Assembly (NCBI GenBank): GCA_964658305.1
Contig: OZ210885.1
Span: forward strand, 10,168,001-10,232,000
Length of the DNA stretch: 64,000 nucleotides
Direction: 5' to 3'
From: Leptogorgia sarmentosa
Taxonomy: Eukaryota
Every line of letters begins with the position of its first letter. The stretch's first letter is position 1. Under the pieces are notes generated by a model, which saw only the letters and a list, made by a program, of their open reading frames with translations, made no database searches and was not told where the DNA came from. The translations under genes were made by a program, and so were the position numbers. This document shows positions 1,132 to 61,543 of this stretch, piece by piece.

Positions 1132-4100
1132 GTATGTGTGAATTATTTGAACTTTTTGTAATACTCATTGATGCGTTATTACACAAAATCGTTGTCAAAA
1201 GTTACTGGTGATGCAAATAGCGCGTTAACTATATAAACTTCCATTCATTCCGCCATAAGCGGAAAACAGGGAAAGTGATTAGCGTGATGAGATGGATATC
1301 AGGTTTTTTCGTTGCAAAGTAACGAACACATACGTAAGCTTTTTACCACTTACAGTATGCTTATCAGAAAGACGAGAGGATACACTAGTTGAGGGTCGAC
1401 CTTTTAATCAGTGCCATACATAGCCCGATAATGCGCGGGGATCATATTCATGTATATTCGTATTCTTAATGACTTTTTCGAAATCTAGTGTCTTTGAACT
1501 TAGTAAACGCGGATATATGAATGTGCCTTCTCCAATTATCGATTTGGCTACCCATCTATTGATAATTCTGAAGCAGTGGCAACGTTGCTTTACCTTCGAC
1601 CCAGTTAATTTTACCCAAGAAACTCGAAAAGCATCAGCACAACGACTGTATATAAAGCAGTTTTCTATGTATTGCAGAGTGACAAGGATTGCTTGGTGAT
1701 TCTTGATGATGTTTGGAGTGTAAACCACGCTTCTGTATTTGATCATCTCTCTGGAAAATGCCAATTATTAATAACTACAAGGAATTCTGAAGTTGTCCGC
1801 GGTTTACAAGGTTCTGCTTTGTATACACTGAAATTTTTAGAACGGACTGGATCTTACAAGCTCTTGTATCAAAGCGCCCAAGTCACCGAGGACGAGCAGT
1901 CTGAGTTTAGCTCAAACATGAGGCGAATTATAGAGGAATTGTTAAACCATTGCGGCGATCTACCGCTAGCTCTGTCCCTAGTAGGTTCAAGTTTAGCCGA
2001 CACTCGCGACGAACAAGACTGGGAAGACGTTTTAAATGACCTCAAAACAGCAGACTTGGTAAAATTACGTTCAATATATCCCGCCAACGCTTATCCTTAC
2101 GACAACGTTTTAACAGCCATTAACGCCAGCTTTCAAAATTTGGACGAGGAAATACGAGAAAAGTTTCTACATTTCGCTTTATTTCCAGAAGATACGGATG
2201 TACCATCAGACATTCTTGAACTGTTTTGGTCTTCCAAAGTAGCCGGAAGAACTGGGTGCAGCCGTCGTGAAGCAAGACGTATACTTGATGAGCTCGAAAA
2301 GAAGTCGATGATTCAAAAAGGTAAATGAAGGCAGGGTGCATGATAATAGACAAAAGTCTTCGCCACAGTTTGGAAATAGCGTGCAAAAATACTATAACTG
2401 CAAAGTTTAAAGAAGAAATATCGTAAAATGGGAATACCATTGCCAGACACAGTTCATTTTGCGTACTATTGTATCAGCACAAACTAAATTATGTCCATTT
2501 CAGACGATAATTAAGAAATAAATAACGAGTCGCGTGCCATTATGCTGTTATAATGCACGAGGGAAATGTTGGGAGAATACGAGAGAATCGCGTAAAATAC
2601 GAGGCGTAGCCGAGTGTTTTAAGCGATTCTCGAGTATTCTCACAACATTGCCCGAGTGCAATTATAACAGCATAATGGCACGCGACGAGTTTTTCTATTT
2701 CTTTTATAATATAAGAGAATATTAGCGCAACAAAAAACTTCGTTACGAAGATCAAGATTACAATTCTCTTTACATGTAATCAAGCGTGTTCTCAAAAGTT
2801 GCCAAGCAGCAACACAGCTTTATTCCTTTAGCTGAGCGAAAGCAAACAATTCAAGCGTTTTTTATGGATGTATTTTTAGTATACATGTATTTTTATTGTC
2901 TTTTTGTGAAACCAAAGAGTCGGGAATTTAATAGCTAGATGCGTGCATTACGCTGCTATAATGCACGCTCATTAGCCAATCACGTCACAGATTTTACCCT
3001 ACTTATATTAAGGACTTATTAACCGAGTGCGAGGTCTGTACGGGAAAGTATTGCCTGAGGGTTTTCGTACAGACCGAGCGACGAAGGAGCGAGGTCTGTG
3101 CGTTAAAAACCGAAGGCAATACTTTCCCGTACAGACCGAGCAAACGAGGTTAATAAGGGATTTATTATATGGCTTTGTTCGATCGCAATTTGTTCTGACA
3201 TTGTAGAAAGAACTAGAAAACACTTTCGCTGCTGAAACGTTCAGCCGTATACACTGGCATACTGAATGGCGGTTTCTGGCCGTTCACTGCTGTACAACAA
3301 CAAAACAATAAAAATACAACAAAGGAAAAAATTGAATAAAAAAATATAATGTAAATGTCGTGATAAACAACAAATGTTCGATGCGAAATGAAGCTATTTA
3401 AGTGCTGTGAAAACAATGTTCGCAACAGTTTTCGAACTGTTGTTTTGTTCGTCGTTATTTTCACTTTAAAACTCAGCATTTTGGATCGTGTGTTTTTCTG
3501 GGACAGCAAAATTCAATCGGGGAGTGTTCTTCAACGTCACCGTACGGCATAATAAGATTTAGTTTCCTTAAAAATTTAATTTGTATAATAGTTTCACGAG
3601 CGGGCAAGATGACTTTCCTGAGCGGGCAAGATGACTTTCCTGAGCGGGCAAGATGACTTTTTCCGGACCGCTAATCAACCAATCAGCGTGCGCCATTTAT
3701 GTCAGCCATATAATAATATAATGGTATTAAATTACTTCTGCGTTATAAATAGTTTGTAAATTGTGCGAAATTTGCATGGGCACAATTTCCCCATTTTATG
3801 AATTCTTCAAACTTTGCATTCATACTATTTTCAGCACGCTGTTTCCAACTGTGATGTTAGTTTTGTGCTTGTTGTCTTATTTTTAAACTTTTGCGATCGC
3901 TAAATTTGTCTGTTGCTCCCTGCATCATAGCTAATCAAATGAAATTCACGAAAACGACGTGAGGTTTTTGAAACATTTTTTTTTACTGTAGTTCCTTTGC
4001 CAAACCTTTATATTAACTGTCAACAAGTTGTTAGGCTGAACATTTGAACAAACCAATGTCAAACAAGTTTGAGAAAAATATATTATTCAGCTATAATCGT

Positions 4101-7100: not shown

Positions 7101-10100
7101 GCCAGGCAATGTTTGTGCCAAGGGCCCAAGCAAAATTAAGCAATGTTTGTGCCAGAGATCCCTGGCAAGCTTTATCCGCCCTTTAGTTAATGCCTGCAGC
7201 TATTGTTAATTCTACTGTAAGCGTTTTACAAAGACCAATTGATGAATCGCAAACAATTTCAATTAATTTAAAACGACGCCTTGGTTACAAACACCATTAT
7301 CAATTTCAGAATGCTATTAGTAAAGCTTCAGAAGCAGCTCAATACTTAGATCATACCAGTGAAATATTTGAAAACGAAGGAATACAAATAATGGACAGTT
7401 AATCAAGTCGATAATAATAAAGAGGAGTGGTTAGGGTTAGAATTTATTTCCATGGATGGAATGGAGACTTCAGAAAATCTGAACGCTCACAGTCAAGAAG
7501 TAGTTGAGAGAAATGAAAGTAATGACTTGATTGATAATGATACAGATGATGAGTGCTGTGCAGCGACTGAACGGTCATCAGGTCTTATGGATACATCATT
7601 ACTAGAAATACATATATGCAGCAACCCCTCGCCTTACTCGCAAAAAAATTCAACTATATTTTTGGAGCATGAAGCACTTTTAGTAAAGCAGTCAGAGGTT
7701 GTTGTCATGGCAACACGATCGGAATTCATATTTCTGTATATTTTTTCAAAACAGTCAGAATATCAGCTTTTATTTTTTCCCGGTCCGTAACTCCCGGTCC
7801 GTAACCTAAATAGAGCTTTCTGATTGGTTGCTGAGCGGTCCGTATCGTCTGTACGGACCGCTCGCATTCTCGTAGATATAAATATAGTCAATGTTTTTGT
7901 TTTTTAAAATTGAATGGCCGCTTTTTTAAACATTCAAAACGAATTTAGGCGATAAAGAACACATGAAAGTTCATTTTATGCTAAGGGATATTTTAGGGGG
8001 TATTTACAGCGACAAAAACTCATAAATATCAACAAAGTCTCATCAGTATGAACAAAACAAAACATTCTCGGCGAAATATTTCGGTGTCTAAAGCGTATTT
8101 TAACCATGTTTGTATCGTGAAACGAACGGAAAAATAAATAATTTTAATAAGTTTACCTTTTTCGTAGTAATGTTGAGTGGAAAAGCGTCAATATTGAAGC
8201 AAAATTAATGCGTCAATATTGAAGGGTTTTTTCTCACTTCGTCTTGGCCGTCTAGCAGCCATACTTGCGATAGAGTAGCAAAGTAAACAAACAAACTGAT
8301 CTCAAAATCTAGTTCGCAACACTGGAATTTTTGACGAATTTTATCATAACTTCGAGGGGGAAAAATAAATAAGTTATTTACCATTTAGGTCGGTCCGTAC
8401 TGGAAAATATTTTGTCTCGGTGTCAAGAACGTCCCTCGGCCTTTGGCCTCGGGCCGTTTTTGAGACCTCGACAAAATATTTTCCAGTACGGACCTCCCAG
8501 CTGGTAAATAACATATATTTATTATATAGAAAAATACAGATGAAAACTGCTGAAATTTAAAACTAGCTATAGTTTAAACGAAACGTCGACTATTTTAATT
8601 CCGTAACTGTTGTTTTTTCCGTGCTTTTTGGCGTGTATTTATCAAGTAAAACTGTTTTTGTAAATATGTCGATTTCAAAGCGATAGAACACTTTGAAATT
8701 ATATTCAGTTATTTAAAATACAAATAAATTTGGAAGTTTTTTATGTCCAGCGCTTGTGTACATAATAAAACAGTTATTCTGCTCACTCTCGTCGTATATG
8801 ACTGATAGTCGCTAGTACTATTTATAACAATTAGTCGCTCGGCGCTTCGCGCCTTGGTGACTATGAGCTTGTAATCACCGAAGCCTGAGGCGACTAATTG
8901 TCTTAGTATAAATTCCCAGGTCAAACTGATTTGATTCAAACTGTCTTTTAAGTAGAAATTCTAGTTTTGTTTAAATAGATAACGAGTCGCGTGCCATTAT
9001 GCTGTTATAATGCACGAGGAAAATGTTGGGAGAATACGAGAGAATCGCGTAAAACACGAGGCGTAGCCGAGTGTTTTACGCGATTCTCGAGTATTCTCAC
9101 AACATTGCCCGAGTGCAATTATAACAGCATAATGGCACGCGACGAGTTTTTCTATTTCTTTTATAATATAAGAGAACATTAGCGCAACAAAAAAACTTCG
9201 TTAGGAAGATCAAAATTATAATTCTCTTTACATGTAATCAAGCGTGTTCTCAAATGTTGCCAAGCAGCAACACAGCTTTATTCCTTTAGCTGAGCGAAAG
9301 CAAACAATTCAAGCGTTTTTTATGGATTTATTTTTAATATATATGTATTTTTATTGTCTTTTTGCCAAACCAAAGAGTCGCCGGAGAATTTTAATAGCAG
9401 ATGCGTGCATTACGCTGTTATAATGCACGCTCATTGGCCAATCACGTTGCAGATTTTACCCTACTTAAATTATAAAGCAGAATACAACATCATTTCAACA
9501 ATTGCAAAGTTTCAAAATTTGATAATAGTAGTCCAATTTGATATTACACTAGCTGCTTTCTGAAACTTAGATCCCTAGTTCTTTATTATTTGCCTCATTT
9601 GATGCCTGGCATAAAATAATGTTTGCTTACAAACTGAACATATAGCAAAGAAACCTGAGCCCATTACGCCTAATCCTGAACATTCTATAAATGTCAATCG
9701 ACTGGAGTCGGGAAATTGTGCAGTTAGAAATCACTTTAATTTAACTTTCGAAATCCATTAACTGTCAATTTAGGAAGCAAGGCAGAGGCTATATACAGGG
9801 TGTATAAAAAAAACTGAATGGATTTTAAATCGCTCTCAACTTCGCAAAGGGGCTCGGGGTACAAAATTTTCGGTTGATGTGGATTGGTTGAGTACTTATA
9901 ATGTAGAATAAACGAAAACATTTTGTAATTTGAATTTTCAAAAACCCGGGAGGAGTGTTTTTTCCAGCAGATAGAAAATGTCTCGCGCACGAAATTTAAA
10001 GGCTCAAAAGCAATTTTTAGTTGATGGACGGAAACGTTGTCAGGTTTTGTATTTCTGTTAAAAATCTCAGAAGAAATGCTTGAGTTTAAGCCCTTGAAAA

Positions 10101-13100
10101 CGCCGCGCAAACTTTCATTTTTTAGTATTATTAGCTTTTTGCATGCTTAATTTATTCTTGTATCTCATTTGCATAATGCTCGTATCTTATTTGCATATGC
10201 AAATTTGGCAGTTTTTATTCCAAAAAATTAAATTATTATTAAATTATTATTAAATTTCGAATTATTCCAAAAAATGAATGTTTGCGCGGCGTTTTCAAGG
10301 GCTTAAACTGAAACATTTTTTCTGAGATTTTTAACAGAAATACAAAACATGACAAATTTTCCGTCCATCAACTAAAAATTGCTTTTGAGCCTTTAAATTT
10401 CGTGCGCAATACATTTTCTATCTGTTGGAAAAAACACTACCCCGGATTTTTGAAAATTCAAATTACAAAATGTTTTCGTTTATTCTACATTATAAGTACT
10501 CAACCAATCCACATAAACCGAAAACTTTGTACCCCGAGGCCCTTTGCGAAGTTGAGAGCGATTTATAATCTGTTCAGTTTTTTTTATACACCCTGTATAT
10601 CGTGCAGTTTAAAACCAGTAATAATGTACTTGCGTATGCGTTGTGAATGTCGTTTTCAATCGTGCGGTTGAAGAATGTCTTTGAAGGGTTTGTGGATATA
10701 GGGAACGGCTCCACAACTTGGGATTCCAGTTTCAATACGGAATTGAATATTAATAGATGCGAGAATGCTGAACGCTAGTTACTGAGATATTCACGCAAAG
10801 TGTGCTCCATTTTAATAAACTTAATATTTTTTGTCCCCTTTATATGAAAATCACTGAAGGGGAACGAACATTTTGTTTGAACAATCAGAAACTTCCATTA
10901 GAAATTACAAAAGAACTCATATAACGAATTTTATTAAACCTATTATGTTAATAATCACGAAACAGATATATATAGTAATATTATACCTCAAATTCAAATT
11001 GTCCAATGGAAAAACGGTGTTCGTACCACGTGACAATGAGATTTTTTAAGGTATTTCAATCAATTCAGTGATTTTTGAACTGAACGGTGAATTCAGAGGG
11101 TAATTCTTATCATTTATAGACCCGGAGCGAGGGGGATTCGGCGTAATATTTCCCGAAGTGATGATATTTTCCGAGGGGCTTTGCCCCGAAGAAAATATCA
11201 TTACTGAGGGAAATATTACGCCGAATCTCCCGAGCGGAGGGTCTATAAATGATATATTATACCGAACAAAACATTTTTGCATCATTGTTTTCAAGAAGTC
11301 TGTTTATTTCTTCGTCCGAGTCTTGCTCGCCCGCCATTTTGCATAGCTAATTAGCTATGCTAGGCGCGTGTTGCCCACGCGTCACGCGTGAGCGTGGGAT
11401 ACTATAATGAAACTTTACTTAAATAAAATTTTCGGTATTGCGCCCTCGGAAAAAATTTCATTCCTCGGGGTAATTTTTTGTGAAATACCCCTCGTTCCTG
11501 GTCGATAACTGATAATAATCAGATAGGCCCGTTAGTTTTTCAATTTTAATTTTTTCCCGGTCAGTAGGAAAATAGTCTTCATCTTTAAATACTATTTTAA
11601 ATATTCTGAATTTGTTACGTGCGCTAATACTGTTGTGTATTTTTGTTTTCCAGGCAGACTGCTATCTTATGAAGAGTATCCGGGGATAAAGACGCTATTA
11701 AAGCAACTCCGTGCAACATGCACGGAGACTTGCTGTCTTATACCGGAATCTTCATGTTTAGATCTTGGCGGCCCTGAGATCTTTCGAAAAACGTTTGATT
11801 CATGGGTATGCTCATTAGCGACGTCCAATACCTCATTCGCTACTCTTGTAATTTGTGGTTTAGAGAATGGTTCAATCACAATCTTTGATCTTGACACAGG
11901 TAGGTAACCATGTGGTAACGTACTATGGATAAACAAAATGGCAAGGATTGGGGGTTTCAATAGTTTTTTTTTCTTTTGACCGATCGTCGGTCCGAAAAAT
12001 TAAATCCCCCCTCTGCTTGTAATTATATGTGCAACCACATCCTCTCTCTGATTTCAAAGAATCATCAATTCTCAGTTATGCAAGTTGAGCGGCTACCGCT
12101 ATATAGGTGTATAAAAAAATTCACATTAAAAATTTTGAAATCGCTCTCAACTTCGCAAAGCGACTCGCGTTACGAAGTTTTTCTGTTTATATACATTGTT
12201 TGGGTACTTATAATGTGGAATAAACGAAAAGATAGAATTTTCAAAGTGCGGTGCGGTGTAAAATTTAAGTAAAATTTTGGATGTTCTATCTGTAACCTAA
12301 TTTCAGGCAGTTTCTACAATTGTATCCTTCAACTTTTTAGCACGCGTCCTGACAATTTTATATTTTGACTGTTTTTGTTTTCCAACTCTTGATGGATTTC
12401 AATAGATCTTCCACTAGGCCTGTCAAGCTAATAACGAACTAACAGTAGATTATAATTGCTACTATCTGGGTTAAACCGGAAGTTTGACACGTAGTCTCAC
12501 TATTTTTCTTGGTTATTAATTAACAAAACTTTGCAGTGCAAAATTACTCCTTGTCAAGAAACGTTGTACTAGCCTTCAGTTTCCATTCTTTATAATTTGT
12601 TAGCGCTGATAATGAACTAAATAGATGAAATGTTTAATAAAGCACATGTGTAACTTACCTGCCGTCACATGTACAGTAGTTCATTAAATCGGAAATTTAT
12701 GGCGCTATATTCTCAGGGAGTTCACTGGTACCGAATGGCCTCAGGGCTCCTCCCATTATGCTTCGCATTACTCTAGGTAATGTGGCTATGCTTTGCTTCA
12801 GGTACATGTGGCTATGCTTTGCTTTTCGAAATCGGCAAATAATTGATTCGCTCGCCAACGATAACTCGCAGTATTTCGTGCGACGTCGTCCAATAATTGA
12901 TAGTAGGGACCTTAAGATCTACAACGCCACAAACTCGACAACGGGGTCTAAATTTCAGCTTGGAAATGAGCGCTGACCTTTTTATGCTTTAAATAGATGT
13001 TGGAATTTTTTCAAGAAACAGTTACACAGGTTCAGCTAAAGCAATGCGATCGTTGCTGTGTAGTCACTTTGAATTTAAGTTTCACCCTTCACGTTGCTTT

Positions 13101-25100: not shown

Positions 25101-28100
25101 TCAGAATTCTGGCAAGTTATCGCAGGGGTGGGAGGGGGTGCAGTAGCCTGCCCGGCCCACTCGCCCGCTTCCGAGGTGTTGAATACGGAAAATGCTGAAT
25201 TGGTGCCCATTTGTATCACGGGCGCTGAAACTGATAATTAAATTTGTTACTAATTCACGCAAATACAAAAAGTATACAAATTTGTCAGCTTTTAAGGACT
25301 GACCTTTTGCGATTGAATTTTGCAGTATTACTAATTGGTGAAAGATTTTGTTCATCTTGCTCAGACTAAAATTTAGTCAGGAGCGTATGACATCTAATGC
25401 AACATTATTTTACCTGTTGTACATCTACGATTACTCTATCTTGTGTTGTTGCTTTCGTTGATATCAACAGTACTGAACTCCACAATATGTCTATATAGGG
25501 CTCCCATTGATAACAGCAATTTTTATTACTGACGGGACTACCCTGCGTAATTAATTGTTTTATCTATCTATCTATCTTCTTAATTGTTGTCGACTTAGTA
25601 ATAGAACGATTCTTGCTAAAGATAAAGTGACCATAGATGTAGTTTCCATTTGCAATAACATTTGATGAATAGGACATATTTCCCTGATCATTTGTGAATA
25701 AATTATACAGCATATTTTGATAATATTGGTTTGTTAAACAATCAATAGTCTGACAGAGATCGTCTTTGCCTTTTTTCGGTAGAAAAAATTATTATTAGAA
25801 ATAAACAATCAACTTGTAATATTTCAGCGGTCTTGCAATAATTCCCAATGCAAAGAAGGTATTGACGGCGTCAAGGGATGGAAGTATCAGGGTTTGGAAC
25901 CTGGGAACTGCTGCGTACATGGAACAAAACAATTTCTCTGATCATTCAAATGACGTCACAGATATTAAAATATCTCGTGATGAGTCTAGATGGGTTTCCG
26001 CATCTACAGATGGTACTTTCAAAGTTTGGAATCTTCACACACAGTGCTTTTCTGTCACAGGTATAGTTCAAATTGTCTATTTGCGCTAGCTTTCTTATAA
26101 ATAGGTTGCGGACGATCTCGTTTTCATTTCATTTCACTAAACTCATTTTCATTTTACTAAATTCATATGAACCGAATCTCAACCTTGTTAATTTTTGTGC
26201 TTCAAGTACTGCACCATGTTCAAAAACTACTATTTTTACGTAGAACAAATTTACCTGGAAATTCAAATCTTGGAGATACTCGTGTATAATAAGCAAATCG
26301 GAATAGTTAATGAGAAACGTTCTTATCTGCAACGCTCTGCACTGATATGAAGACAGAAAACCTGTGGTTAAGTACAGTTGAATGGATAGCAGGCTTTCGT
26401 AGATTAATTAGGCCTACGTTAATTTCCTTTTGATTTGTATGCCTAAGATAATTACATGTAAAGAAAAGAATTACTTTGGCCAAATTCTAAAACTAATTCT
26501 TATAACCAATCGTAATTACAAAATTTCAACTAGTTTCATGCAGAATGACGATATAAACCTCGTTGAAAACAAAACAATAAGTGCTAAGATATTTTATATT
26601 TTGATATTTCGCTCGTGTTGTGTCTGTCATTGTCGTCTCTGCGTGCTTCAAATATTCCATATCTCTACAATATTCCTTGTATTCATATAATAAACAAATT
26701 ACTTCATGCGCAGTTGGCTCGTTTGTTCAAATTTTATTATTTGCGAATCGTACACATCTCTATTTGCATCATTGACGAAAGGTTTTATGAGATTTGGGGA
26801 CTCTCTATGAGATACATAGAGATTGGCTACTTCACGGTTGGCGAGTGTATACAATTTTTATTTACCATTTGTGATGGATCGCTAAATACGATCTTAGCTC
26901 ATACGATCGTGAGCTTAGCGATCTCAACGAGTAAATAATAACGGTACAAACGAGCAACTGTGAAGTTATTTGTTTATTACAGCAGTATAAAGAAGACTGT
27001 AGAGATACGGAATATTTGATACTGACAGACAACAATGACAAACACAACGTAAGCAAAATATAAAATTTCTCACCACTTATTGCAACGGTGATTTTTTGCC
27101 TTGAACAGTGGATAGTTGCACGCTCATTTCTCTTCTGGTTTGAAATATGTCAATACGAAGTCCTGGAATAGATTTAATGTGAAGTTACAGGGTTCCACAT
27201 CAAGCGTATCACGGTTGTTGTGCAGTTTCAGCGTGCGTTTCCACTTTCCAGTCCATTCTTTTGATAGTCTATGGTCTAGTCCATTAGAATAGGGTTCAAT
27301 ATGCGACCACACTCCTAATATAAATTCCGAAGTGTTCAGCGGACACTAAATTAAGTGTAAATTTGCACAATTTTGGTGTGGCTAAATGGGTGAGAGGCCT
27401 ATATCGTGTTTTGCATTGATTAACTTCTTTGGAAATAAATACAAACCAGATTTTTTTATGAAATTTATATATATTTAAAATATTGACAAATGGTCCAGCA
27501 TGTGGGAACAATATTTAAGAAATAGATAACGAGTCGCGTGCCCTTATGCTGTTATAATGCACGAGGGCAATGTTGGGAGAATACGAGAGAATCGCGTAAA
27601 ACACGAGGCGTAGCCGAGTGTTTTACGCGATTCTCGAGTATTCTCACAACATTGCCCGAGTGCAATTACAACAGCATAATGGCACGCGACGAGTTTTTCT
27701 ATTTCTTTTATAATATAAGAGAATATTAGCGCAACAAAAAACTTCGTTAGGAAGATCAAAATTACAATTCTCTTTACATGTAATCAAGCGTGTTCTCAAA
27801 TGTTGCCAAGCAGCAACACAGCTTTTTTCTTTTAGCTGAGCGAAAGCAAACATTTCAAGCGTTTTTTATGGATGTATTTTTAGTATATATGTATTTTTAT
27901 TGTCTTTTTGTCAAACCAAAGAGTCGCGGGAGAAATTTAATAGCTAGATGCGTGCATTACGCTGTTATAATGCACGCTCATTAGCCAATCACGTTGCAGC
28001 TTTTACCCTACTTATATTATAATATATATTATTATATGGCCGACATAAATGGCGCACGCTGATTGGTTGATTAGCGGTCCGGAAAAAGTCATCTTGCCCG

Positions 28101-31100
28101 CTCAGGAAAGTCATCTTGCCCGCTCAGGAAAGTCATTTTGCCCGCTCGTGAAACTATTATAAAAATTAAATTTTTAAGGAAACTAAATCTTATTATGCCG
28201 TACGGTGACGTTGAAGAACACTCCCCGATTGAATTTTGCTGTCCCAGAAAAACACACGATCCAAAATGCTGAGTTTTAAAGTGAAAATAACGGCGAACAA
28301 AACAAGAGTTCGAAAACTGTTGCGAACATTGTTTTCACAGCACTTAAATGGCTTCATTTTGCATCGAACATTTGTTGTTTATCACGACATTTACATTATA
28401 TTTTTTATTCAATTTTTTCCTTTGTTGTAGTACAGCAGTGAACGGCCAGAAACCGCCATTCAGTATGCCAGTGTATACGGCAGAACGTTTCAGCAGCGAA
28501 AGTGTTTCCTAGTTCTTTCTACAATGTCAGAACAAATTGCGATCGAACAAAGCCATATAATAAATCCCTTATTAACCTCGTTTGCTCGGTCTGTACGGGA
28601 AAGTATTGCCTTCGGTTTTTAACGCACAGACCTCGCTCCTTCGTCGCTCGGTCTGTACGAAAACCCTCAGCCAATACTTTCCCGTACAGACCGAGCAAAC
28701 GAGGTTAATAAGTCCTTATTACATTACAATTTAAATTTGCATCTCAACTTTCACAATCCGCTAAATCGTATCGCATTCTAATGTTCTTTCTCACAATTCC
28801 TATAAATATCTAAAGGATGGTAGTCTAGTAGTTCATCGTAATTTATTGCTACAAAGTTATTTATCAATGCAACGTCATATGAACGGAGGTGCTTGCGATA
28901 GCTCAATGTGTGCATTTTTTTACAAGTAAAAAATACATCTCCATTTGTGATGATGAAAATATCTTCTATAATAAAAGAATGGCAATATCAAATGCTGGTA
29001 GACAACTGCTGTGTAGGTTCCGGATATAATAACATCAACAAGCAACAAAAGTTCTACTTACTACCTAAACGTTATAGAAAACAAATTCACTGCCTATATC
29101 GTTCAGTTGGTGAGTAGAACTTACTATCAAGTTATATTAGATACAGTATTGAATCCACGACTCAAGATTTTTCTTTTCATTGTATAATATGAATCCTTAA
29201 ATTGCAAAGATTTTTACATTAATTTTAATAACGCGTCCAACTTGATCATGCACAACCTATTTCTGACTGTTACAGAAAATATCCTTTTAATGTTTACTTC
29301 AATTTCTGAATTGATTATTTTTCCTTCCTGATCAATAGGTGACCTTGAATGGGCAAAACATGTTGCAGTCTCTGCTGATGATCGCTATGTCGTGTCGCTG
29401 TCAAAGAATTATCGCTTAACGAAGTCCTCGATAAAGGTGTAGTACACAAGCCTATACTAGTCATACTGTGCATATAAAAAAACAAAACAATAGAAACATC
29501 CAAACACAAGAAATTTTTTGAATTGTCTGTTCCACGTTTCGACTCGGCGTATTCATTATTAGGAATGTATACAATTTTTACAAAACATGGGTACATATAG
29601 CTACTTGTGAAACGCATTAATAATTCATGAAGAAAACAAAGAGGAAATCATCAGCATGCACTGGTGTAAGTATATGTAATACGCAAATTTCGGTTGACTG
29701 GCATAAACTATAAGTCTATAACTTTGATTTTCTGATGCTATATGATATCAGATGTGTTTTTAAAATTAAAGAAGGTTTGTATCAGACCCTAAAAATCGAA
29801 GGTATGGACTGGAAACTCTGGCTTAAATTGCACGACATCCGCGTCTTGCGCTTTGTTTTGAAACCTGTACTTCACATTTAATCCATTCCAGGACTTTGTA
29901 CTGACATATTTTAAACCAGAACCGAAAGAAATGTACATTTACATATAATATATAGTAAGAAAGCAAAAGAATGACCGTTTTAAGTAGGTTATATTTTAAT
30001 ATTAAAAATAGTCTAGTAAAATTGTATATCAGTATATGGATTATTATTATTATTATTATTTAATGACCTTGGATTTTGCAATCTTAAAGATTGAAATACA
30101 TCCATAGGCATAACAGCATGGTTACCTATTACATATAAAATATCAGAGTATATGGTAAAAATGTTAAAAACTAAAAATTCTAAAAAACTGTTGATTAAAA
30201 CTAAGCGTTAGTACTAAAAGTTATTAAAACGTTCAACAGAGGACGGAATAAAAGAGTTTTTGAGTACGAGCATTGAAGCATTGCCTTTCAATTTCATAAA
30301 CAGCTTTAAATTTCGACAGATTCAGTAAGTTACTAATTTACTATGTGTTATGGAATGGATTCTCATGCAAGATTTAAGACAAACTATACAGTACTGTGCA
30401 AAAGTTATAGGCACCTCGTGAAAAAACATTTGACGCCATCTTATTGTAAACTTATTGTAAACTTATACGATAAGTTTACAATAAGATGGCGTCAAATGCT
30501 TTTTCACGAGGTGCCTATAACTTTTGCACAGTACTGTACTTCATTCAGACCTGTATGATGACGGTTTCAGGTCAACGTACTCATAACCCATGATAGATAA
30601 TAATTGAAGTATGAATATGTGACCAGTGTAGGTAGCAGATGGCAACATCAACAACAAATAAAGGTCTACTCAATACCTATAAGTGTGACCGGATGATGCG
30701 TATCCGTATTTACTTATTTAGTTCGTTAAATGGCGTAGTTAGGCCACAGTAATTTCCTATGCAAACCCCAATTACGCAAATAGTTTCAAGCTTATCCAAG
30801 GTCATAGCAAGGAAAAAGGTCAAGGGAAGTCAAAACTGCAGAATCATGCTTCTAGCATTATCTTGCGACGCAGATCCTGTTTTTGTGGTTAATTTTCTGT
30901 AACTTAAAGTTGGTTTTAGCATGAGTGAGCAACCGCATGTCTTCCCTTACCATGCATTTTACGCAAATGCTACGCACGCGAAAATTGCTAATCTTCCTGT
31001 GTGTGATTATAAATTGAGCGCACAAAAGTATAATATCTTCAGTCGTTGTTGCGCAGTCACGGTTATATAGTATGGACTCATTCCAATAACGTATAATGTA

Positions 31101-34100: not shown

Positions 34101-37100
34101 GCACGCATAATATAACTAATTAAACCTATTTACAAAGTCATTCATGTGCGTGTTAGTTATTATATTCATAATTAGTTTAGCTAAAATCAATGTAGTCACA
34201 AGTTTAAAGCGTTTTTTGCGTATCACACAGAAAAATTTTTCCTTTTATTTTCAAGGTGTGGAATTTGTCTGATGGCAGTGTGATCAATGGAATTGATAGC
34301 GATGGCACACCTGAGATAGTTCGCTTTAGTTCTGATGGGTTGCAAGTTATAATTGGATGCAAAGATAACCATGTGTTCATCTGGGACTGGCAAAAGCCAG
34401 ATGCGTCTTTGAAAGAAGTCATTTTACCCGCGTCCTACACAGTGGAATTAGCATGCGATCGCAACATGATTTACACATGCAGCCGGGATATGCATACTTG
34501 TGAAATCAATCTCGACTCACTACAAGTATCGACTGTTTGTCAAGGGTCGAGCGTTCCACCTGTAATATCACCCGACGGTAAAATAGTATTATTTGGGTCG
34601 CTTCAGAATAATGTGTTTTTCCACGGGAAACTGTCAACAAATAGTTTGGTCGAGCATAATGCAGGTGGGTAAATGAAGGAATATTTGAAACTTCTAAATA
34701 CTTAAGTCATTGATGCGACTACAGGGTATTGTACTATCTTTATACACGCAAAATTTATGTTTGTGAAATATCCGTTTTAGTTGACAATATATTTCTCCGA
34801 AAAAAACAGTGCATTCAAATTACTATTGGATTCGATTTAAGAAATTGTTATGGCTTCACATGCTATTTTCTGATTACGAACAATACAATGAAAACAGTTT
34901 CATCGCGAGTATCTACAAGCTAATATGCATTATTTAGGTCGTGTTGCATGTAGAGAAAGAATACCAACACTACAAGATTGCTGTGGTATATAGAAATCCT
35001 ATAGGATTTGCAGCACATCGTTGCTGCGGTGAATGTAAATCTCAATGCATTTTTAGCTGATCAATAATTTTTTCCCGTCATCCTTTTCAATTTATTTGCA
35101 TTATACTGTATGTTATGTATATTTAATTTTGACCTTATCAAGATTAGTTCAGTTATCTCACTGTTTGGAAGTGCTATAAAGGACCCCAACTACGAGCCCC
35201 AATTCTGTAATTCCAGTCATTTTTGACGCCAATATTGTATTTCCTGGGTCATCCTGCTGTTAAAAATGCGGGATCCAGTTAAAAATAAATTATCCATTCG
35301 ACTGTCAGTGATGAGTTTGATCGTCTACGATTTCCATTATCGCGCAACTTACCTTAATCCTTAAACTGCATTGTTCGTAAAACTGCATGATGACGATCTG
35401 CTACTGAAAACAATGCGATCTTGGAAAAAAAAAGAAAAAACGTAATTGTATGTAATTTGTCAATGATCTGGGTGTAACAGTGTGTATTTGTCTGAACCTG
35501 CTCGGCATGCAATAATTGACGACAAAACCAAGTATATAAAGATTTTATATAATGACAAGATGGACTATTAGGACAGATTTTATATAAATTGGCTCCAATC
35601 CTATGTTAAGAAGTATTTCTTATTCCATGATATTATTTTCATTGAATATAAACATCTCAAACAAGGTTATGAATGCAAAACAATCCGGTTAACAATTGAC
35701 GTGCACTTGTCTTGGAAAAATAAAACTGAAACTATTTGCCAAAAGGTAACAGCGTGAATTACTGCTGGCTAAGCGTTTCTTTACCACAATATACTTATTT
35801 TGATATATAACGCTATTGTTAGTCCGCACCATAGCCAGAATTCGCGGACATTTCAGCCCGCGCTATCTTCCCAGCGGCTGTACGAACAATGTCCTCAGAA
35901 TTCATCAATACCCCTCGATATCCCTCAGCGTTTTCTCATCAAAATAAAAATAGCAAAAACAGCTGGTACTGAGAAACATAGTCCAACTGTCGAAACCATC
36001 TAAATCATCCGACTTTTTTCAACAAGCATCTCTCCTCGTAAGGGGTCTCAGCCATTCTGAATTTAAATTTTCGCGCGTTGCTTTTTGGCAAAGCGCGTTT
36101 TCTGATGAATAGAGTCTCGGACTCAATACATATCTATAGGAAAATTCTTTCTCGCTCCACATGTTGGTACCAAACGCGGCATGTTATGTGTATTACGCTT
36201 GGGACAAATTGGTGAACGATAAACCTCAGTTCAATACTAATCGTACACGACTGTTCCGATAACATAGTGGACTTTATTGATTTCGTAACTTTAAAAAGCA
36301 GAGTGGCTATAGATCGCCAAAATCTTAGTGGCTTAGATCGATCCAAGATGATGAAATGAATTCAAAAGCCACTCGTTCAAACTAAAAGATTTCAACAATG
36401 ATCGATGCTGTCTAAGTATCGTGAAATTTAAATTTTAACCTTATCTTTCCGAAAAATATGTTGTTCCCCCTTCAAAATTATAAGTTAATTTCTTTGAGTA
36501 TTACTCGCAAAAAGCGGAGCCCGGCGTAAAAGTTTATGGTGATTTGTGTTATTCACAGACATGCTGTACTTATAAAATATTAAACAATTATTGAATGAGG
36601 CCGAGTAGGATATGAGGAATTATCCAGGCCGAGGTTTGTGTTATCTGCCAAAGCCGAAGGCTGAGGGAGATAATACAAACCGAGGCCTGAATAATTCCCC
36701 ATTCCTACGAGGACCGAATTCAATAATTGTTTCATTATTTATTTGTATATAGCGCTTGCAAAAACACGCAATTGCAAGGTATTAGAAATAGAACAATAAA
36801 ATAGTGTTCGCAAGACTGAATAAGCCAATCAGACTACAAGAGAAAATGTTCTTATAGCTGTTGTACATTTCAAGGTCGCAGTCAGAGCAATTCAACATAG
36901 CTAAACAAATATAAATCAAACAAATTTATTTCAACTCAATATAAACGTTTGGAAGAACCTTTCCTTTGAGGAAGCCATTTGTATTTCCCACTATTTTTCC
37001 GCTTTTGGCATATGCAGAATAAATTAGTCGACGTCATAATGTCGTATAATTTTCAATATACGACATAATTACGTCATAATGTCGTATATGAAGATTTAAT

Positions 37101-40100
37101 GCACTGCTCTTAACCAATCAAAACTCTTGAATTGTTTGAAATAAATAATACTAATTGATATACTTGACAACTTCTTATGACTTTAATTGAACATTTTACT
37201 TCCTTCATGCAGGTCACCCTGACGACTCGATAGTTACAGCAATTGACATCACATCGAATGGTAAATTTGCTTTGTCTGGAAGCAGTTCAGGAACATTGTC
37301 ACTGGTCGACATAGAGTGTTCTAAAATAGTTCAAACCTTCGCAAAGACCGAATCTGGAGTCGCCATACGTTTTGTGTGCTTATTAAGTGATGATGTCCGT
37401 TTCGTTTTTGTTGACGGGGCAAATAGGATCGATCTAAGAACCTTTAATGATATCGAGGCCAGCATTAATTTGGGTCAACCAGAAGTTAAAGTCACCTGCA
37501 TTACTGCTCTTGGTTCAAACTATGCATTGCTTGGTTGTGATGACGGAGAACTGTTATGGTTTCATCTTAACAATAAATCGCAGTTGAAATTCCCAGCACA
37601 CGAGGATGCCATTTCTCAAGTTAGACGCGAGCTAGGAGGTCACGATCGTTCACGTCGCTTCGCATCGGGGTCTATCGGTGGATCTGTGAAGCTTTGGAAT
37701 GTTGAAGAAAACTTGCCGACGTTAATATGGTCACATGATAACATTTGTTCTAATTCCATTACCGCGTTAGAATTCGTGCCCTGCTCGGATGATATTATAA
37801 TTGCTTCTGACGACGAGGTATGTATATCATTTTCCAAACGAGATTGTCAAACGTTAGCTATTTTTGGTGCGTGTTACTTGCTGTATAGGTTGAGCTGCAA
37901 TTCAAATTTCGTCATGTCTCTTTACCGAACAAGATTCTCAAACGTTATTTTTAGGGCTTAATATTTGTTGTAGTTGAGCTGCACTTCAAATTTCATTCCT
38001 TGCAGTACATGAAAAATAACACATACCATGCTTATTGTGAAGCGTTTCTAGAAATGTTGTGAATTAACTTTGTTCCAAGTATTATTTTGGAAATCGGGGG
38101 ACAAAATTAGAAGAAAGCTCCTAGTTCAGCCCTTGACTGGAAGAACACAACCAAGTAAATGCATGTGGTGATGAAGTCGTGTGCATGTTTAATTGTTTTT
38201 TCGCTAATCGATGTTTTGTGCACTGTGAAAAGTGTAAAAAAAAGAAAAAACATATGGTGGGCATGTCATTGTTACCGATTCCATGGCGAAAATCGCATTA
38301 AGATTAGATCTGTCCGCATGGTTAAGCACGCTACCTGAGTTTGTTCCACCTACTCGGTCTCGTCCAATTGTTAAATATTCCCTAAACTAATAAAAGCGCG
38401 AAAAAGTTCCGAAAACACGCGTTCAGTTAGCCTAGGTAGTTTAATATACTCTCGGCAGTCTCGTACATCTGCACGGCACTTCATTTATTTAAAAATAGGT
38501 ACACAAAGTGCTCATGTATTGCGCTCAAGCTACCAGCGCGGTGATACAAACTTGTCAATGCGCGACTTGTTGGATCTGTCCCGAATATGTGTCACCTTGC
38601 ATGTATAAAATTGTAATCCGCTGGCAATTAGCGCGACTGTTTTTTCGAAAGTACTGATTTCTGAAACGTGAGGTTGGGCGTTGAAGACTTGATATAAGCT
38701 TTCATAAATATATCGCATTCCAAATATCAAATTGCAATGGAATTCAACTGGGCGACATACGATATGGCATATTTTAAAGACCTCCTTCAAATTTATTGAT
38801 GTTGTCGCGTCTTGCGATTGCTTTTCGAAATTTGTTGCTTCCTTTAACCAAGTTTACCCTTTGTATAAAACCACTTACATACAACATATTCTGTCCATGT
38901 TTTTAAATTGTCAATGTCGTTTTGAATTGCAATTGGGCATTTACTGAGATGTAGAATGTCAAAATTGATTGCCTAAACTTTCGTTGTTGTAGACTACACT
39001 TTACAATGTATCGGTACAAACATTGCAACATTAACATGCTGCCATTTTGAATATTTTTCGAACTGTAATTGCACAATTACTGGGATTTATACTGCACAAT
39101 GCAACCGCAATACTGCGAGAGTAAATTTACAGAATCTCAATTTTTAATTCGACGAAATAACACGCTGATATTTATATTGCGCAGTACAACCACAATACTA
39201 CAGGATCAAGTTTACAGAATCGCAACTTCTACTTCGATGAAATAACACGCTGACTCCCGCTATCTCGAACTCTCAAGGGCAACAAAAATTCGTTGGAAAT
39301 AGGGGGAGTTCGACCTGGTTCGACTTAGCGAGGGTTGATGTGAATGTACTGTGAGTTCAATGGAACTGGCTTTCAGTTCGCGAGATAACGCAAGATTCGA
39401 GATAACCGAGTTCAAGATAGCGGGATTCTACTGTAGCGCTCCTGCCCTATTCCTTGACAATACAACTGACTAAAATAGATGCCGTGTGTAACGGTATAAG
39501 GCAAGTTAACTCTAACGCATAATTATGAACCTACAAAAATGGAACGATAACTGGACTGTTTGTGATGTATAGGTATTTTAGCTTCATGATAATACAGTAT
39601 ACGTAGGCTACAATTCATACATTATAGTTAAGACCAGCCTGAATGAACGTTAATTGAGAAATGTCTCACTAATATCCGGCCACGACATATACACATAACA
39701 ATACACATTAATGGACAATGGTCCGCATCGACTGCATGGATGGAAATTCTGGCGATTTACGTAAGAATGCACTTACAGACTTGCAAGACCTCAACGGGTA
39801 GTACCCAATATTTCTCAATTGAGAGCACGGGTAATGCCCACGCTGGACTATCGCCTAAGCTTGCTGGTTGGCGTTTCAGTATTACTCTTGATATAGTTAT
39901 ATTAGTGTTAGATATAAACCATTTTTCTATATACTAAGAATTTCCTTAATCCCAACCCAAACCCTAGAATCCTAACCCTGACCATTGTGGTCAGAAAAAT
40001 ATTGAGGAAAAAAAAGTTTTCATCACAAACGCTGAAAAAATGTGCCGAACTGGGGCTTGAACTATAGAACTGCAACGCACGCACCGCGCGCCTTACCACT

Positions 40101-46170: not shown

Positions 46171-46525
46171 TCTCACAAGGCGTCACCAAGGTTTGCACCA
46201 AATCAGAAAATTGTGAACATTTAAAACCTCTAGATCGCCGGAAACGACCATTTCAAAGCGCTAACTCTACCTCTTTGGTAAGATCATTTAAGTGTACGAA
46301 TCAAAGATCGCTTACATTAAGTATTATATTGCTGTATAACTTTTATAATTACTATTGTCACAAGTGAAAGAAAACGAGAGATGGTAAACAGTGGGGGACA
46401 GTTATATAGTCGTCCCCTAAGCCAAAAATTCGGGGACCCCACAAGATTAGCACCCTTTATATAGTATTTAGCACATGTGATTAGCTCATTTGTCGTCAAA
46501 TATAATGTTCCAACACCTCGCATTT

Positions 46526-46608
46526 TTATCATTTATAGACCCGGAGCGAGGGGGATTCGGCGTAATATTTCCCGAAGTGATGATATTTTCCGAGGGGCTT
46601 TGCCCCGA
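46526..46608 (+). mobile_element. Truncated left end of family G fused to the AcademH transposase
   Basis: 83-bp exact match to 11107-11189. Confidence 0.85.
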
Positions 46609-49600: not shown

Positions 49601-49949
49601 GCTCAAAGAAGTAATTAAAAAAATGGGACCAAATGCTTCCAATGAAAAAGCAGTAAATAGATTTTGCAAGGCAATTCCAACAAACAAGCAATTAATGGAC
49701 AATTTTGACTATACCTGTAAAGTTTTACGACGATCTGGAAAACATGTTAAAACAGTAGCATCAAATGATTTTAACAAAATTGTCAAGGAACTTATGAAAT
49801 CTGATGCCTTTACACAGAATACACAACGCAAGCTTATGAAGTTCCACAACTGTGGGCCAAGTGTATTGACAAATTTCGATCTGCATTCCATGTTCAAATG
49901 GATAAATGAACACAGAAGTTCTATTTATCTGCACAAGACGGCACGTTAA
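46609..49949 (+). CDS. AcademH-type DDE transposase (DUF6589-like), spliced, 5'-truncated; exons ~46609-47157, 47304-47534, 47826-48131, 48330-48593, 48774-49949
   Basis: Four phase-0 GT-AG introns join into one frame. Candidate catalytic motifs VFDNFDF, GVVADQLS, IPLDLALEHYN; also ADFH, EGDG.R...WK, KYALE; C2H2-like finger CRFPGC...HEKTH. Paired convergently with a RecQ-like helicase. Confidence 0.8.
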
Positions 49950-51839: not shown

Positions 51840-52443
51840 GTCTTGTTGATGAACACTAAGTGCTTGATGTTGATAAACACTAAGTTCAAGGTATTTTTAT
51901 TTGTTGTCCTTATTTGTTTGAATATTCTCAGTTCCTACATAACATGCAGTAAAGGTTCAAATTGTTCTATTTTAATTTAATGGAAGAAATTAATAAAAAC
52001 AAATTACCAACCATCTTAGTATTGTGTCTTTTTCCTCCATTGGAATTTTTTTATATTATACTTTTCCACTTATATACTTATCACCCAATAGCCATGTTTT
52101 CATTGGGTACTTAGTTGCATTTCATGCACAATAGGGTTAACAATATTAGTTTATGATTAAGTTAAGCTCAACAACAAGCAGATTCGTGCAGAAACATTGG
52201 AGACATAACCTTTAAATATGTCTGTTTGAACGAGCAGGCGTGGAAACAAAGCCATTGGGTAAACAAGAGTGATTAGTAAGGTGTATCAATCTAGAACAGG
52301 TGTAATGTAAACAGACATGATGTTCAAAGTATATACCTGTTGAAATTGCAAAATCTACACACAACTATATTTATAAAATCAGATATTTGAGTCTGACTGC
52401 AAGGTGATACGTATTACTCTAGGGATCACACTGTTATCATCTG

Positions 52444-57249: not shown

Positions 57250-58014
57250 CCATAGGTAGCCCAACGCACGCATGACATAACATTCAGTAGTATAATATGA
57301 TCATATATATCATATTATTCTATAGACAAGCACTATATATGAGATATTCTGTAATCTGATTGGCTGAGCTACTCACTAGCTATTACTTCATATATAGTGA
57401 GTAGGACGAATTAATTATCTCACTCAAGTGAGCTTAAAACAAAATGGCTGAAAATGGCTGAGCGTTTCCCTCAAATGAATGATTTTAATAAATTTTATAA
57501 TGTTCGCCTTTTGTCTATATAATAAAACAATTATACCATTCGCCTCTCGTCGTATATGGCTGATAGTCAACTCGGCTGCGCCTCGTCGGCTATCAGCTCA
57601 TATACGACTCGAGCTCATGGTATAATTGCTAAATATATCATAATATATCATATTATTATATAGACAAGCACTATATATGAGATATTCTGTAATCTGATTG
57701 GCTGAGCTACTCGCTAGCTATTACTTCATATATAGTGAGTAGGACGAATTAATTATCTCACTCAAGTAAGCTTAAAACAGAATGGCTGAAAATGGCTGAG
57801 CGTTTCCCTCAAATGAATGATTTTAATAAATTTTATAATGTTCGCCTTTTGTCTATATAATAAAACAATTATACCATTCGCTCTTGTCGTATATGGCTGA
57901 TAGCCAACTCGGCTGCGCCTCGTCGGTTATCAGCTCATATACGACTCGAGCTCATGGCATAATTGTTAATTATACTACTGGATGTTACGTCATGCGTGCG
58001 TTGGGCTACTATGG
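57250..58014. mobile_element. Small palindromic MITE (CCATAG termini, AAATA TSD) split by the family E dimer
   Basis: Arms 57250-57294 and 57971-58014 are inverted copies; AAATA at 57245-57249 and 58015-58019. Confidence 0.8.
57312..57972 (-). mobile_element. Hairpin element family E, head-to-tail tandem dimer (period ~338 bp)
   Basis: Two near-identical units (TAGACAAG at 57323 and 57661), each with TGATTGG, AAAATGGC and a terminal CTCG-bulged hairpin. Confidence 0.75.
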
Positions 58015-60850: not shown

Positions 60851-61543
60851 TATTATTATATACACAAGCGCTGGATATGAGCTATTCTGCAATCTGATTG
60901 GTTCTCTACTAGCAGGATATTAGCTCATATCCTGCTAGTACAGAAATGTAAACAAAATGGCTGAAAGAGCGAAGCCGGAATTGAAGTTTTCAACAGTTAA
61001 AAACGTCTTTGCGACCGATTAAAAGAATAAAACTCAAGAAGTTTAGTTGTAAATGTTTATTGTGCAGTTTTGAATCTGGAAAACCGGACTCGACGCTGTA
61101 AAATTCATCGCTTGACTGAGTTGGATCGCTTGTTGTTGTTTGTTGACATTTTACAACGGTAAAATTTGTGTTGCACTTTCAAATGCAGAAAAATACAGAT
61201 GAAAACTGCTGAAATTTAAAACTAGCTATAGTTTAAACGAAACGTCGACTATTTTAATTCCGTAACTGTTGTTTTTTCCGTGCTTTTTGGCGTGTATTTA
61301 TCAAGTAAAACTGTTTTTGTAAATATGTCGATTTCAAAGCGATAGAACACTTTGAAATTATATTCAGTTATTAACTAAAATACAAATTAATTTGGAAGTT
61401 GTTTTTGTCCAGTGCTTGTGTACATAATAAAACAGTTATTCTGCTCACTCTCGTCGTATATGACTGATAGTCGACTCGGCGCTACGCGCCTCGTCGACTA
61501 TCAGCGCATATACGACTCGAGTTCGCAGAATAACTGTTAAATA
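60851..61543 (-). mobile_element. Hairpin element family D, full copy
   Basis: TGATTGG ~60895, AAAATGGC ~60953, hairpin 61431-61538 with CTCG bulges and TAC loop. Confidence 0.7.

What the first reader, a model, noticed from the sequence alone, without database searches (positions are those of the whole stretch)
2513..2703. Strand-specific tandem-GA hairpins shared by at least 7 sequence-distinct repeat families: a candidate ssDNA-folded recombination signal
Seen: in the family A hairpin, four regularly spaced mismatches are all CGAG opposite CGAG (C-G, G.A, A.G, G-C) and the apex is GC-GTA-GC. The same pattern recurs, with different stem sequences, in B (3016-3156; apex C-GA-C-GAA-G-GA-G), F (36582-36732; GAA loop) and G (11109-11253; TTT loop). 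It appears as the complement CTCG/CTCG in C (8373-8512), D (61431-61538; GTA loop on minus) and E (~57526-57628 and its repeat; GCA loop on minus). In A-F the GA strand always has the hairpin at its 5' end and CCAATCA ~30-50 nt from its 3' end. Established: tandem sheared G.A pairs and GNA triloops stabilise DNA hairpins, while the complementary strand gets destabilising T.C/C.T mismatches. Strand-selective folded ssDNA sites are used by integron attC (tyrosine recombinase) and IS200/IS605 (HUH). Inference: these elements have no clear TSD and resemble, as I recall, non-autonomous Crypton (tyrosine-recombinase) elements of marine invertebrates. They may be mobilised through a folded single strand recognised by structure rather than sequence. 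I am not aware of this being described for eukaryotic DNA transposons.
Basis: partly seen in the sequence, partly recalled or inferred. Interest (0 to 1): 0.88.

Follow-up and report, generated by a model that had tools for sequence, protein, structure and literature searches.

The report
GA-studded hairpin ends of Crypton transposons
These repeats are short, gene-less jumping elements whose ends match longer relatives in other animals that encode a Crypton-type tyrosine recombinase; their hairpin, predicted to fold better on one strand, and an internal mirror of their joined ends suggest that they likely move as folded single-stranded DNA, as bacterial integron cassettes do.

Summary
Eleven of 15 long hairpins in the window carry tandem GA/GA loops (33 of 40 two-by-two loops), never mixed with the complementary loops within a copy. 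They are one end of 317-749-nt multi-copy mobile elements; two empty sites show no target duplication. The hairpin is followed by a mirror of the element's joined ends: a 5-nt spacer faces a 7-nt leader, two letters short at the crossover. The same design occurs in 16 further sequence clusters from animal-type DNA. It also encloses DUF3504 tyrosine-recombinase genes (10 of 21 loci, in both gene orientations), and a D/E/F-type end leads into a decayed recombinase gene. They are non-autonomous CryptonA-type elements (about 0.88). The likely mechanism (about 0.55, untested): one strand folds, rebuilds a recombination site like integron attC, one strand is exchanged, and replication finishes. No partner gene was seen in this genome. 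This scan noted the same design before on other genomes; I found it in no paper searched.

The parts
2511..3008 (+). Family A copy 1; its last 5 nt lie at 3717-3721, displaced by B1. Hairpin 2513-2703, mirror segment directly after it, small hairpin and CCAAT box near the far end
   Evidence: empty site
3009..3716 (+). Family B copy 1, inserted in the far end of A1; hairpin 3016-3156
   Evidence: skipped together with A1
7770..8518 (-). Family C; hairpin 8364-8523, inserted at what looks like the far end of the D fragment
8528..8811 (-). Fragment of family D, cut inside its hairpin
   Evidence: 97.6% to 61187-61473
8970..9475 (+). Family A copy 2 (first letters altered or lost)
11108..11254 (+). 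Family G hairpin (GA loops, TTT cap); far end not identified
27515..28022 (+). Family A copy 3
   Evidence: empty site
28029..28718 (-). Family B copy 2, tail to tail with A3; outer stem fully paired, two GA loops lost
   Evidence: empty site
36581..37151 (+). Family F; hairpin 36572-36742 including flank pairing
   Evidence: left junction 36580|36581 from the joint, printed
46522..46608 (+). Half hairpin of family G ending just past the cap, 87 nt inside an open frame
57315..57632 (-). Family E copy 1 (318 nt)
57653..57969 (-). Family E copy 2 (317 nt), near-tandem with E1
60853..61540 (-). Family D (688 nt); hairpin 61431-61538; possible remnant of a recombinase C-terminus at 61046-61150 (weak)

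Best explanation
The hairpins are one end of short, gene-less mobile elements that are likely CryptonA-type transposons and likely move as a folded single DNA strand cut by a tyrosine recombinase supplied by longer relatives. Shown: on the GA strand each element reads leader (7 nt), arm a, hairpin, arm a', 5-nt spacer, b', body, b; b ends in AA and b' is its reverse complement. Insertions fall just after an A-(A/T) dinucleotide of the target with no duplication, often at the b end of another element. Longer elements with these ends carry a DUF3504 recombinase gene. Inferred: when the GA strand is exposed (replication fork or supercoiling), a pairs with a' and b with b'. This brings the two ends together on the internal mirror and builds a double-helical recombinase site: two AT-rich arms around an uneven 7-over-5 core. 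The recombinase would cut only the GA strand just after the AA, giving a dumbbell-shaped single-stranded circle, and would insert it by one strand exchange into a duplex target, with replication resolving the junction (copy-out, as for attC and CTX phage). The tandem GA pairs and the GNA cap would nucleate and stabilise the fold on this strand only and so fix which strand is used. Family-specific motifs shared by the stem and the far end would be sequence-specific binding sites. The CCAAT box is likely a promoter remnant.
For: Junction rule in 7 multi-copy families outside the window: a 7-nt leader, a 5-nt internal spacer, A at -2 in 87 of 93 and A/T at -1 in 80 of 93 pooled left flanks, and variable DNA right after the terminal AA. 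The rule reproduces the empty site of A3+B2 letter for letter (joint in 4 of 4 runs) and the left junction of F (2 of 4 runs); A1+B1 agrees at the junction with one extra letter just beyond it (3 of 4 runs). Stems co-vary: 26 of 39 pairs changed on both sides, 95.8% of cells paired, against 34-43% when slid. Loops not asked for by the search: 29 of 61 GA/GA against 1 TC/TC; homologues found by similarity: 53 of 82. Recombinase genes lie between hairpin and b in 10 of 21 DUF3504 loci, best L291 (28 of 29 nt) and L292. L295 begins with an end 84% like E (49 nt) and 83% like F (41 nt) and runs into a decayed recombinase. The predicted fold is Cre-like, E 5e-9. attC precedent: folded strand, AAC triplet, 5-6-nt unpaired spacer, folded strand about 2 kcal/mol more stable, replicative resolution (PMC5027507, PMC3458562, passages).
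Against: No single-stranded or circular form was observed, and no recombinase gene of families A-G was seen in this organism (no genome held). The predicted strand difference is small. In G001, loops beyond the apex were GA/GA in only 12 of 59 (GA/AA 16, GG/AT 12), b beat all 30 shuffles in only 7 of 51 hairpins, and none of 60 apex matches had a recombinase within about 4 kb. In 8 of the 10 enclosing loci b is a 9-15-nt match read by eye and not significant alone; 11 of 21 recombinase loci showed no enclosing ends. B2, L235 and L297 lost outer loops, and L285 has a flipped apex, so arm-to-arm copying can also produce co-variation. G does not fit the 7/5 rule. An algal CryptonF shows clean excisions (10.1101/2022.05.23.493040, passages), which a pure copy-out route would not leave.
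Confidence: 0.56

Rival explanations
1. Same elements and enzyme, but the standard Crypton route: double-stranded excision to a circle and two strand exchanges, tolerant of mismatched cores. The hairpin and mirror would be accessory binding sites or a cruciform, and the GA loops would persist as a by-product, being mismatches that repair overlooks, or would be read as direct CGAG repeats on the duplex.
For: It is the published model (PMC3212892 and PMC13565253, passages). Clean excisions are seen for an algal CryptonF. Arms are homogenised in B2, L235 and L297. Outer loops vary in G001.
Against: It does not explain why the mirror sits in register with both ends and is two letters short in every multi-copy family checked, why the GA polarity is tied to the leader-first strand, or why loops keep a spacing of about 20 nt from the cap in unrelated stems found without a GA query.
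Confidence: 0.26
2. The folded strand is real, but the GA hairpin is a priming or origin signal for making the second strand of a single-stranded circle, and the recombinase then acts on the duplex circle.
For: GC-GNA-GC mini-hairpins occur at phage single-strand origins and resist SSB binding (PMC13037366, passages). The GA loops lie 20-80 bp from the crossover. Bacterial strand-biased elements circularise one strand with tyrosine recombinases (PMC9345347, abstract).
Against: It leaves the conserved 7-over-5 core at the base of the hairpin unexplained for the insertion step. C and G lack the GNA cap.
Confidence: 0.09
3. Non-autonomous DIRS-like retroelements: the GA strand is the cDNA and the mirror is the ICR that templates the ends.
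For: The layout (internal segment complementary to both ends) is that of the DIRS ICR, and DIRS-1 has single-stranded cDNA intermediates (PMC7192593, passages).
Against: The GA strand is the coding strand in 6 and the non-coding strand in 4 of the 10 enclosing elements. The mirror is two letters short and often mismatched, so it cannot template the leader. The enclosing elements are 1.6-2.3 kb with a recombinase frame, too short for a DIRS gene set. There are no long inverted terminal repeats.
Confidence: 0.05
4. MITE-like passengers of a DDE transposase, or HUH (Helitron/IS200-like) elements.
For: They are short, multi-copy and AT-targeting, with hairpins; some flanks read TA on both sides.
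Against: The two ends are not inverted repeats of each other; there is no duplication at empty sites; the base after the far end is variable. No HUH domain was found, and no DDE domain inside an element's ends, among 63 plus 11 frames scanned (a Harbinger frame in L024 and RT fragments in L067 and L074 are flanking or inserted). The long copies found encode DUF3504.
Confidence: 0.04

Closest known systems
CryptonA DNA transposons and their non-autonomous derivatives (Kojima and Jurka 2011, PMC3212892)
   Same: Single DUF3504 tyrosine-recombinase gene in long copies, no TIR, no true target duplication, many short gene-less derivatives, animal hosts.
   Different: That paper reports finding no terminal repeats in animal Cryptons (supplement 1 lists none). 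Here there is a fixed end design: hairpin, 7-over-5 mirror, and 2-3 nt of target likeness instead of a 4-6-nt direct repeat.
Integron attC sites (and CTX phage attP, named in PMC3458562)
   Same: A recombinase site that would exist only when one strand folds: AA next to the crossover, a short unpaired core between two arms, unpaired features that differ between strands, a hairpin beyond.
   Different: A bacterial system with IntI and attI. attC selects its strand by extrahelical bases, not tandem GA pairs. Here the site is built from both ends of the element plus an internal mirror. The mechanism is shown for attC and only inferred here.
DIRS-1 internal complementary region (PMC7192593)
   Same: An internal segment complementary to both termini side by side; tyrosine recombinase; single-stranded intermediate.
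   Different: No reverse transcriptase and no long ITRs; the mirror is imperfect and two letters short; strand polarity is independent of the gene's direction.
Strand-biased circularising elements SE-6945/SE-6283 (PMC9345347, abstract only)
   Same: Tyrosine recombinases make a circle of one strand and leave the donor in place.
   Different: Bacterial, four genes; no such hairpin is mentioned in the abstract.
Eulor5/Eulor6 and salmon Crypton-N1_SSa, CryptonA-N2_SSa (PMC5753468, passages)
   Same: Non-autonomous animal Cryptons, similar to each other at the termini. I recall that Eulor5/6 begin with a similar capped hairpin; no call checked this.
   Different: The paper's text does not mention hairpins or palindromes (0 occurrences); the sequences could not be compared.

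Membership tests
CryptonA | Long copies encode a tyrosine recombinase of the DUF3504 type | tested here: met
   In other animals' DNA: 10 of 21 DUF3504 loci are enclosed by these ends. 10 of 10 aligned proteins match PF12012 and 8 of 10 Phage_integrase. R, H-x-x-R, H and Y are present in L275, L278, L279, L280, L291 and L292. The window copies themselves are gene-less.
CryptonA | No terminal inverted repeats and no true target-site duplication | tested here: met
   Empty sites; flank profiles.
CryptonA | Short direct repeat (4-6 nt) reflecting likeness to the target | tested here: inconclusive
   Only 2-3 nt are shared (A at -2 in 87 of 93, A/T at -1 in 80 of 93). None is reported for CryptonA either.
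CryptonA | Recombinase falls in the CryptonA clade of a tree | not tested
   No reference Crypton sequences were on hand; the assignment rests on Pfam DUF3504 and the animal-type host.
CryptonA | Autonomous partner in the same genome | not testable with these tools
   No genome held. Indirect only: L295 and a weak remnant in D (E 0.44).
DIRS retrotransposons | Reverse transcriptase/RNase H and long inverted terminal repeats | tested here: not met
   Enclosing elements are 1.6-2.3 kb with a recombinase frame; no long ITRs.
DIRS retrotransposons | ICR exactly complementary to both termini | tested here: not met
   Complementary to both, but two letters short and often mismatched in the core.
Integron attC system | IntI integrase, attI site and cassette array | tested here: not met
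   The enzyme is DUF3504-type; IntI ranks 27th, below Cre, in the fold search; no array is present.
Integron attC system | Only one folded strand is bound and cut | not testable with these tools
   Needs biochemistry; sequence design and predicted energies are consistent.
HUH elements (Helitron, IS200/IS605, Replitron) | HUH nuclease in long copies | tested here: not met
   None in the 63 of 101 frames scanned from hairpin-bearing metagenome loci or in 11 further frames; not a genome-wide test.
DDE MITEs | TIRs and a target-site duplication | tested here: not met

The most novel reading that the evidence does not exclude
Animal CryptonA transposons are eukaryotic counterparts of integron cassettes: one strand folds into a dumbbell that builds the tyrosine-recombinase site from both ends and an internal mirror, sheared GA pairs and a GNA cap select that strand, and insertion is a single strand exchange finished by replication. 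This would be a eukaryotic DNA transposon that recombines folded single-stranded DNA with a tyrosine recombinase, and a biological role for tandem GA pairs in genomic DNA.
Probability: 0.5. Interest if true: 0.87.

Novelty: new variant of a known kind. Interest (0 to 1): 0.72.

Why it matters
A 2026 review says that the Crypton mechanism has not been shown experimentally and assumes a double-stranded circle (PMC13565253, passages), and the founding paper found no end structure in animal Cryptons. The end rule here (7-nt leader, 5-nt mirror core, AA crossover, GA-marked strand) gives exact boundaries for annotating an abundant and polymorphic repeat class, and names the substrates for a decisive test-tube assay. 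If single-strand use holds, it extends integron-type chemistry to animals and offers a compact recombinase with a 2-3-nt target need.

Tried and rejected
No whole genome was held, so no genome-wide count was possible. Viral contigs: one pattern gave 4 loci, none a long hairpin (three are tandem arrays), a second pattern gave 0, and there was no relative of the L291 protein. Prokaryote genome contigs: 113 of 120 pattern matches do not fold; the 7 that do are low-GC stretches that I read as host-animal DNA in bins. Pfam scans of 63 of the 101 long frames near metagenome hairpins found no recombinase. L029, which scored under the hairpin cut-off and so was not among them, later showed a decayed DUF3504 gene next to a half hairpin; whether the two are one element is open. 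My first reading of a TA duplication (note) was dropped when multi-copy flanks showed a variable base after the far end. The automatic 7/5 finder slips in AT-rich DNA: it missed B and gave chance hits such as L277 and L286, so registers were read by eye. The recombinase remnant in D is the top hit of 2,842 segments but has E 0.44, and the motif that picks it out was written after seeing it. The hairpin-first search for long partners in G001 found none in 60, and the two long candidates held no recombinase. The DUF6589/helicase element next to the G half-hairpin was not taken as the partner: that copy is cut at the cap and sits inside a frame. Whole elements were not folded as circles, so pairing of b with b' rests on complementarity alone. 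Paper searches for motif letters found nothing. PMC9004415 (passages) had no bearing.

Full report
Setting. The window is AT-rich animal-type DNA: an intron-rich NB-ARC/APAF1/WD40 gene, a Harbinger element and a DUF6589/helicase element. No genome is held. The host group is inferred, not established.

Observation. Hairpin A has four CGAG/CGAG loops and a GTA cap. A scan blind to GA found 15 long hairpins, 11 of the reported kind and 4 plain. In the 11, 33 of 40 two-by-two loops are GA/GA on one strand with no mixing inside a copy; in the plain ones 0 of 3. The GA strand is predicted more stable in 11 of 11, by 0.5-5.2 kcal/mol. D and E are one cluster. C and G lack a GNA cap, B2 has lost its outer loops, and G has no CCAATCA. 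CCAATCA is 28-51 nt from the far end in 10 of 10 full A-F copies but is not enriched in the window. I take it as a CCAAT promoter box (recalled), and I did not see it in the copies of the largest metagenome family printed.

They are mobile. Contigs of public runs cover A, B and C far more deeply than the flanks and include joints that skip A1+B1 (3 of 4 runs), A3+B2 (4 of 4) and F (2 of 4). These may be paralogues rather than alleles. Compared by eye, the A3+B2 empty site equals the left flank, the 6 nt between the two elements and the right flank, with nothing duplicated or lost.

Anatomy beyond the finding. On the GA strand, the DNA right after the hairpin is the reverse complement of the element's far end (for D 17 nt, for E 15 nt). 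Arm a' and this b' segment together mirror the junction that the two ends would form. In seven multi-copy families from other animals, conservation at the left end starts 7 nt before arm a (for the largest family, 91-97% at each of the 7 positions in 32 copies, 56% at -1, 41% at -3), the mirror has a 5-nt spacer, and the far end stops at AA. Pooled left flanks have A at -2 in 87 of 93 and A/T at -1 in 80 of 93; the pool includes a few inner-arm matches, and arm a was defined by me. A-F fit this by eye; G does not. Two AT-rich arms ending in AA and TT around a 6-8-nt core is the usual shape of a tyrosine-recombinase site (PMC3212892, section 3 part 1).

Breadth. 74 of 87 with GC under 0.5 fold as long hairpins and 0 of 33 above it; they form 16 clusters that do not join the window's six. 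Several have animal-type flanking genes. Loops beyond the two demanded are GA/GA in 29 of 61 and TC/TC in 1, with GA/GA in 8 of 10 clusters. Homologues of A, B, D and E found by similarity alone in G004 have 53 of 82 GA-type loops in 28 of 40 loci, and the other 12 also fold with GA loops. An alignment of 11 D/E-type hairpins has 26 of 39 pairs changed on both sides and 95.8% of cells paired; the structure was drawn from D, and kinship and arm copying inflate such counts. Against: in G001, 51 of 60 cap matches lie in long hairpins, but loops beyond the cap are GA/GA in only 12 of 59, and b is individually significant in 7 of 51.

The enzyme. Two bins that appear to hold animal DNA gave 34 and 5 DUF3504 matches, with 0 in 14 control genomes. 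I fetched 22 matches (21 distinct loci) of the 39. Ten are enclosed by hairpin and b: L279, L280, L291 and L292 with the hairpin after the gene and GA on the non-coding strand; L275, L278, L282, L283, L285 and L287 with the hairpin before the gene on the coding strand. Only L291 (28 of 29 nt) and L292 have b matches strong by themselves; L275 and L278 have lost or degraded GA loops. Six of the ten show the full catalytic set. The model of L283 (mean pLDDT 66.5) matches Cre best, E 5e-9. The tie to the window is L295, whose first 49 nt are 84% like E and which runs into a decayed recombinase; its far end was not found. Both gene orientations occur while the GA strand stays leader-first, which points to a DNA-level process.

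Mechanism. Shown: the layout, the crossover position, the lack of duplication and the enzyme class in relatives. Inferred: folding of the GA strand, cutting after the AA on that strand, one strand exchange and replicative resolution. A single exchange on the GA strand between a folded circle and a duplex target gives exactly the observed product. An exchange on the mirror strand would flip the GA polarity, which was seen only as rare apex flips (L285, L314). GC-GNA-GC caps are unusually stable in DNA, more so than the RNA counterpart reported (PMC13037366, passages). The stability of tandem sheared GA pairs is recalled, not from a call. Each family repeats a motif of its stem near the far end, so recognition is likely both structural and sequence-specific. 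I put membership in CryptonA-type elements at about 0.88 and the single-strand route at about 0.55; the standard double-stranded circle is the main rival.

Literature. Seen: PMC3212892 (abstract, section 3 parts 1-2 of 7, supplement 1 of 6); passages of PMC5753468, PMC13465315, PMC9004415, PMC7192593, PMC13037366, PMC3458562, PMC5027507, PMC13565253, 10.1101/2022.05.23.493040 and 10.64898/2026.02.10.705023; the abstract of PMC9345347. Animal Cryptons are described as lacking terminal repeats, the mechanism as undemonstrated, an algal CryptonF as both excising and gaining copies, and Crypton-A insertions as polymorphic in an oyster. Searches listed no paper whose title, abstract start or read passages describe this end design or a folded-strand route for Cryptons. 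Repbase Reports, Dfam notes and Goodwin 2003 were not seen and may describe the hairpin; bioRxiv supplements are closed.

Earlier notes of this scan. Ten notes on other genomes reach the same reading. I had noted the mirror before the look-ups and the 7/5 rule before the second set. They are not counted as evidence. The sequence look-up for family A found none.

Verdict. A real feature, and a new variant of a known kind: an undescribed end design of CryptonA-type elements that makes an open mechanistic question testable. Interest 0.72.

Noticed in passing
window 754-45487 (+): Host gene with many introns: NB-ARC, APAF1 helical and WD40 exons. Most of the elements sit in its introns; contig depth and slightly different empty sites suggest several paralogues.
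   Followed up: partly
window 50477-53798: PIF/Harbinger element with 53-nt inverted ends, a DDE_Tnp_4 frame on minus and a second 414-aa frame on plus.
   Followed up: no
window about 46465-55446: DUF6589 frames on plus and DEAD/Helicase_C frames on minus around the Harbinger; recalled as the gene set of helicase-bearing Academ elements. Ends not mapped.
   Followed up: no
window 46522-46608 and 8528-8811: Two copies are cut at or near the hairpin cap; the G half adds 29 codons to an open frame without a stop. Suggests breakage or capture at the folded cap.
   Followed up: partly
window 8812-8915 (+), 11420-11520 (-), 61555-61620: Further pieces of related design: a branched hairpin with leader and mirror, a half hairpin of a G relative, and a GAA-capped small hairpin near another element's end (read by eye).
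   Followed up: no
window 3009, 8518, 28023-28029; L304, L321, L323, L333: These elements pile up at each other's far ends, which resemble the target, forming chains.
   Followed up: partly
window 57250-57296 and 57969-58014: The E pair sits in the middle of another palindromic element.
   Followed up: no
window 9791-10600, 21453-22324, 23919-24792, 30387-30538, 43649-43788: Ordinary inverted-repeat MITEs without GA loops; an empty site for 30387-30538 was seen.
   Followed up: partly
window 31589-32410 (+): Gag-like open frame of 273 aa by eye, with two 79-nt repeats; no clear Pfam match.
   Followed up: no
L001, L003, L004 (viral contigs): Tandem arrays of the GA-closed GAA mini-hairpin between genes of a giant-virus-like contig.
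   Followed up: no
L075, L077, L107: Tandem arrays of short GA-loop hairpins in metagenome contigs; element ends not mapped.
   Followed up: no
G001 and G004: Bins filed as bacterial genomes hold what looks like animal DNA: 34 and 5 DUF3504 matches, 92 and 26 cap motifs.
   Followed up: partly
L291 2450-2567: A palindromic MITE interrupts the 5' part of the recombinase gene, so this best-bounded long copy is probably dead.
   Followed up: no
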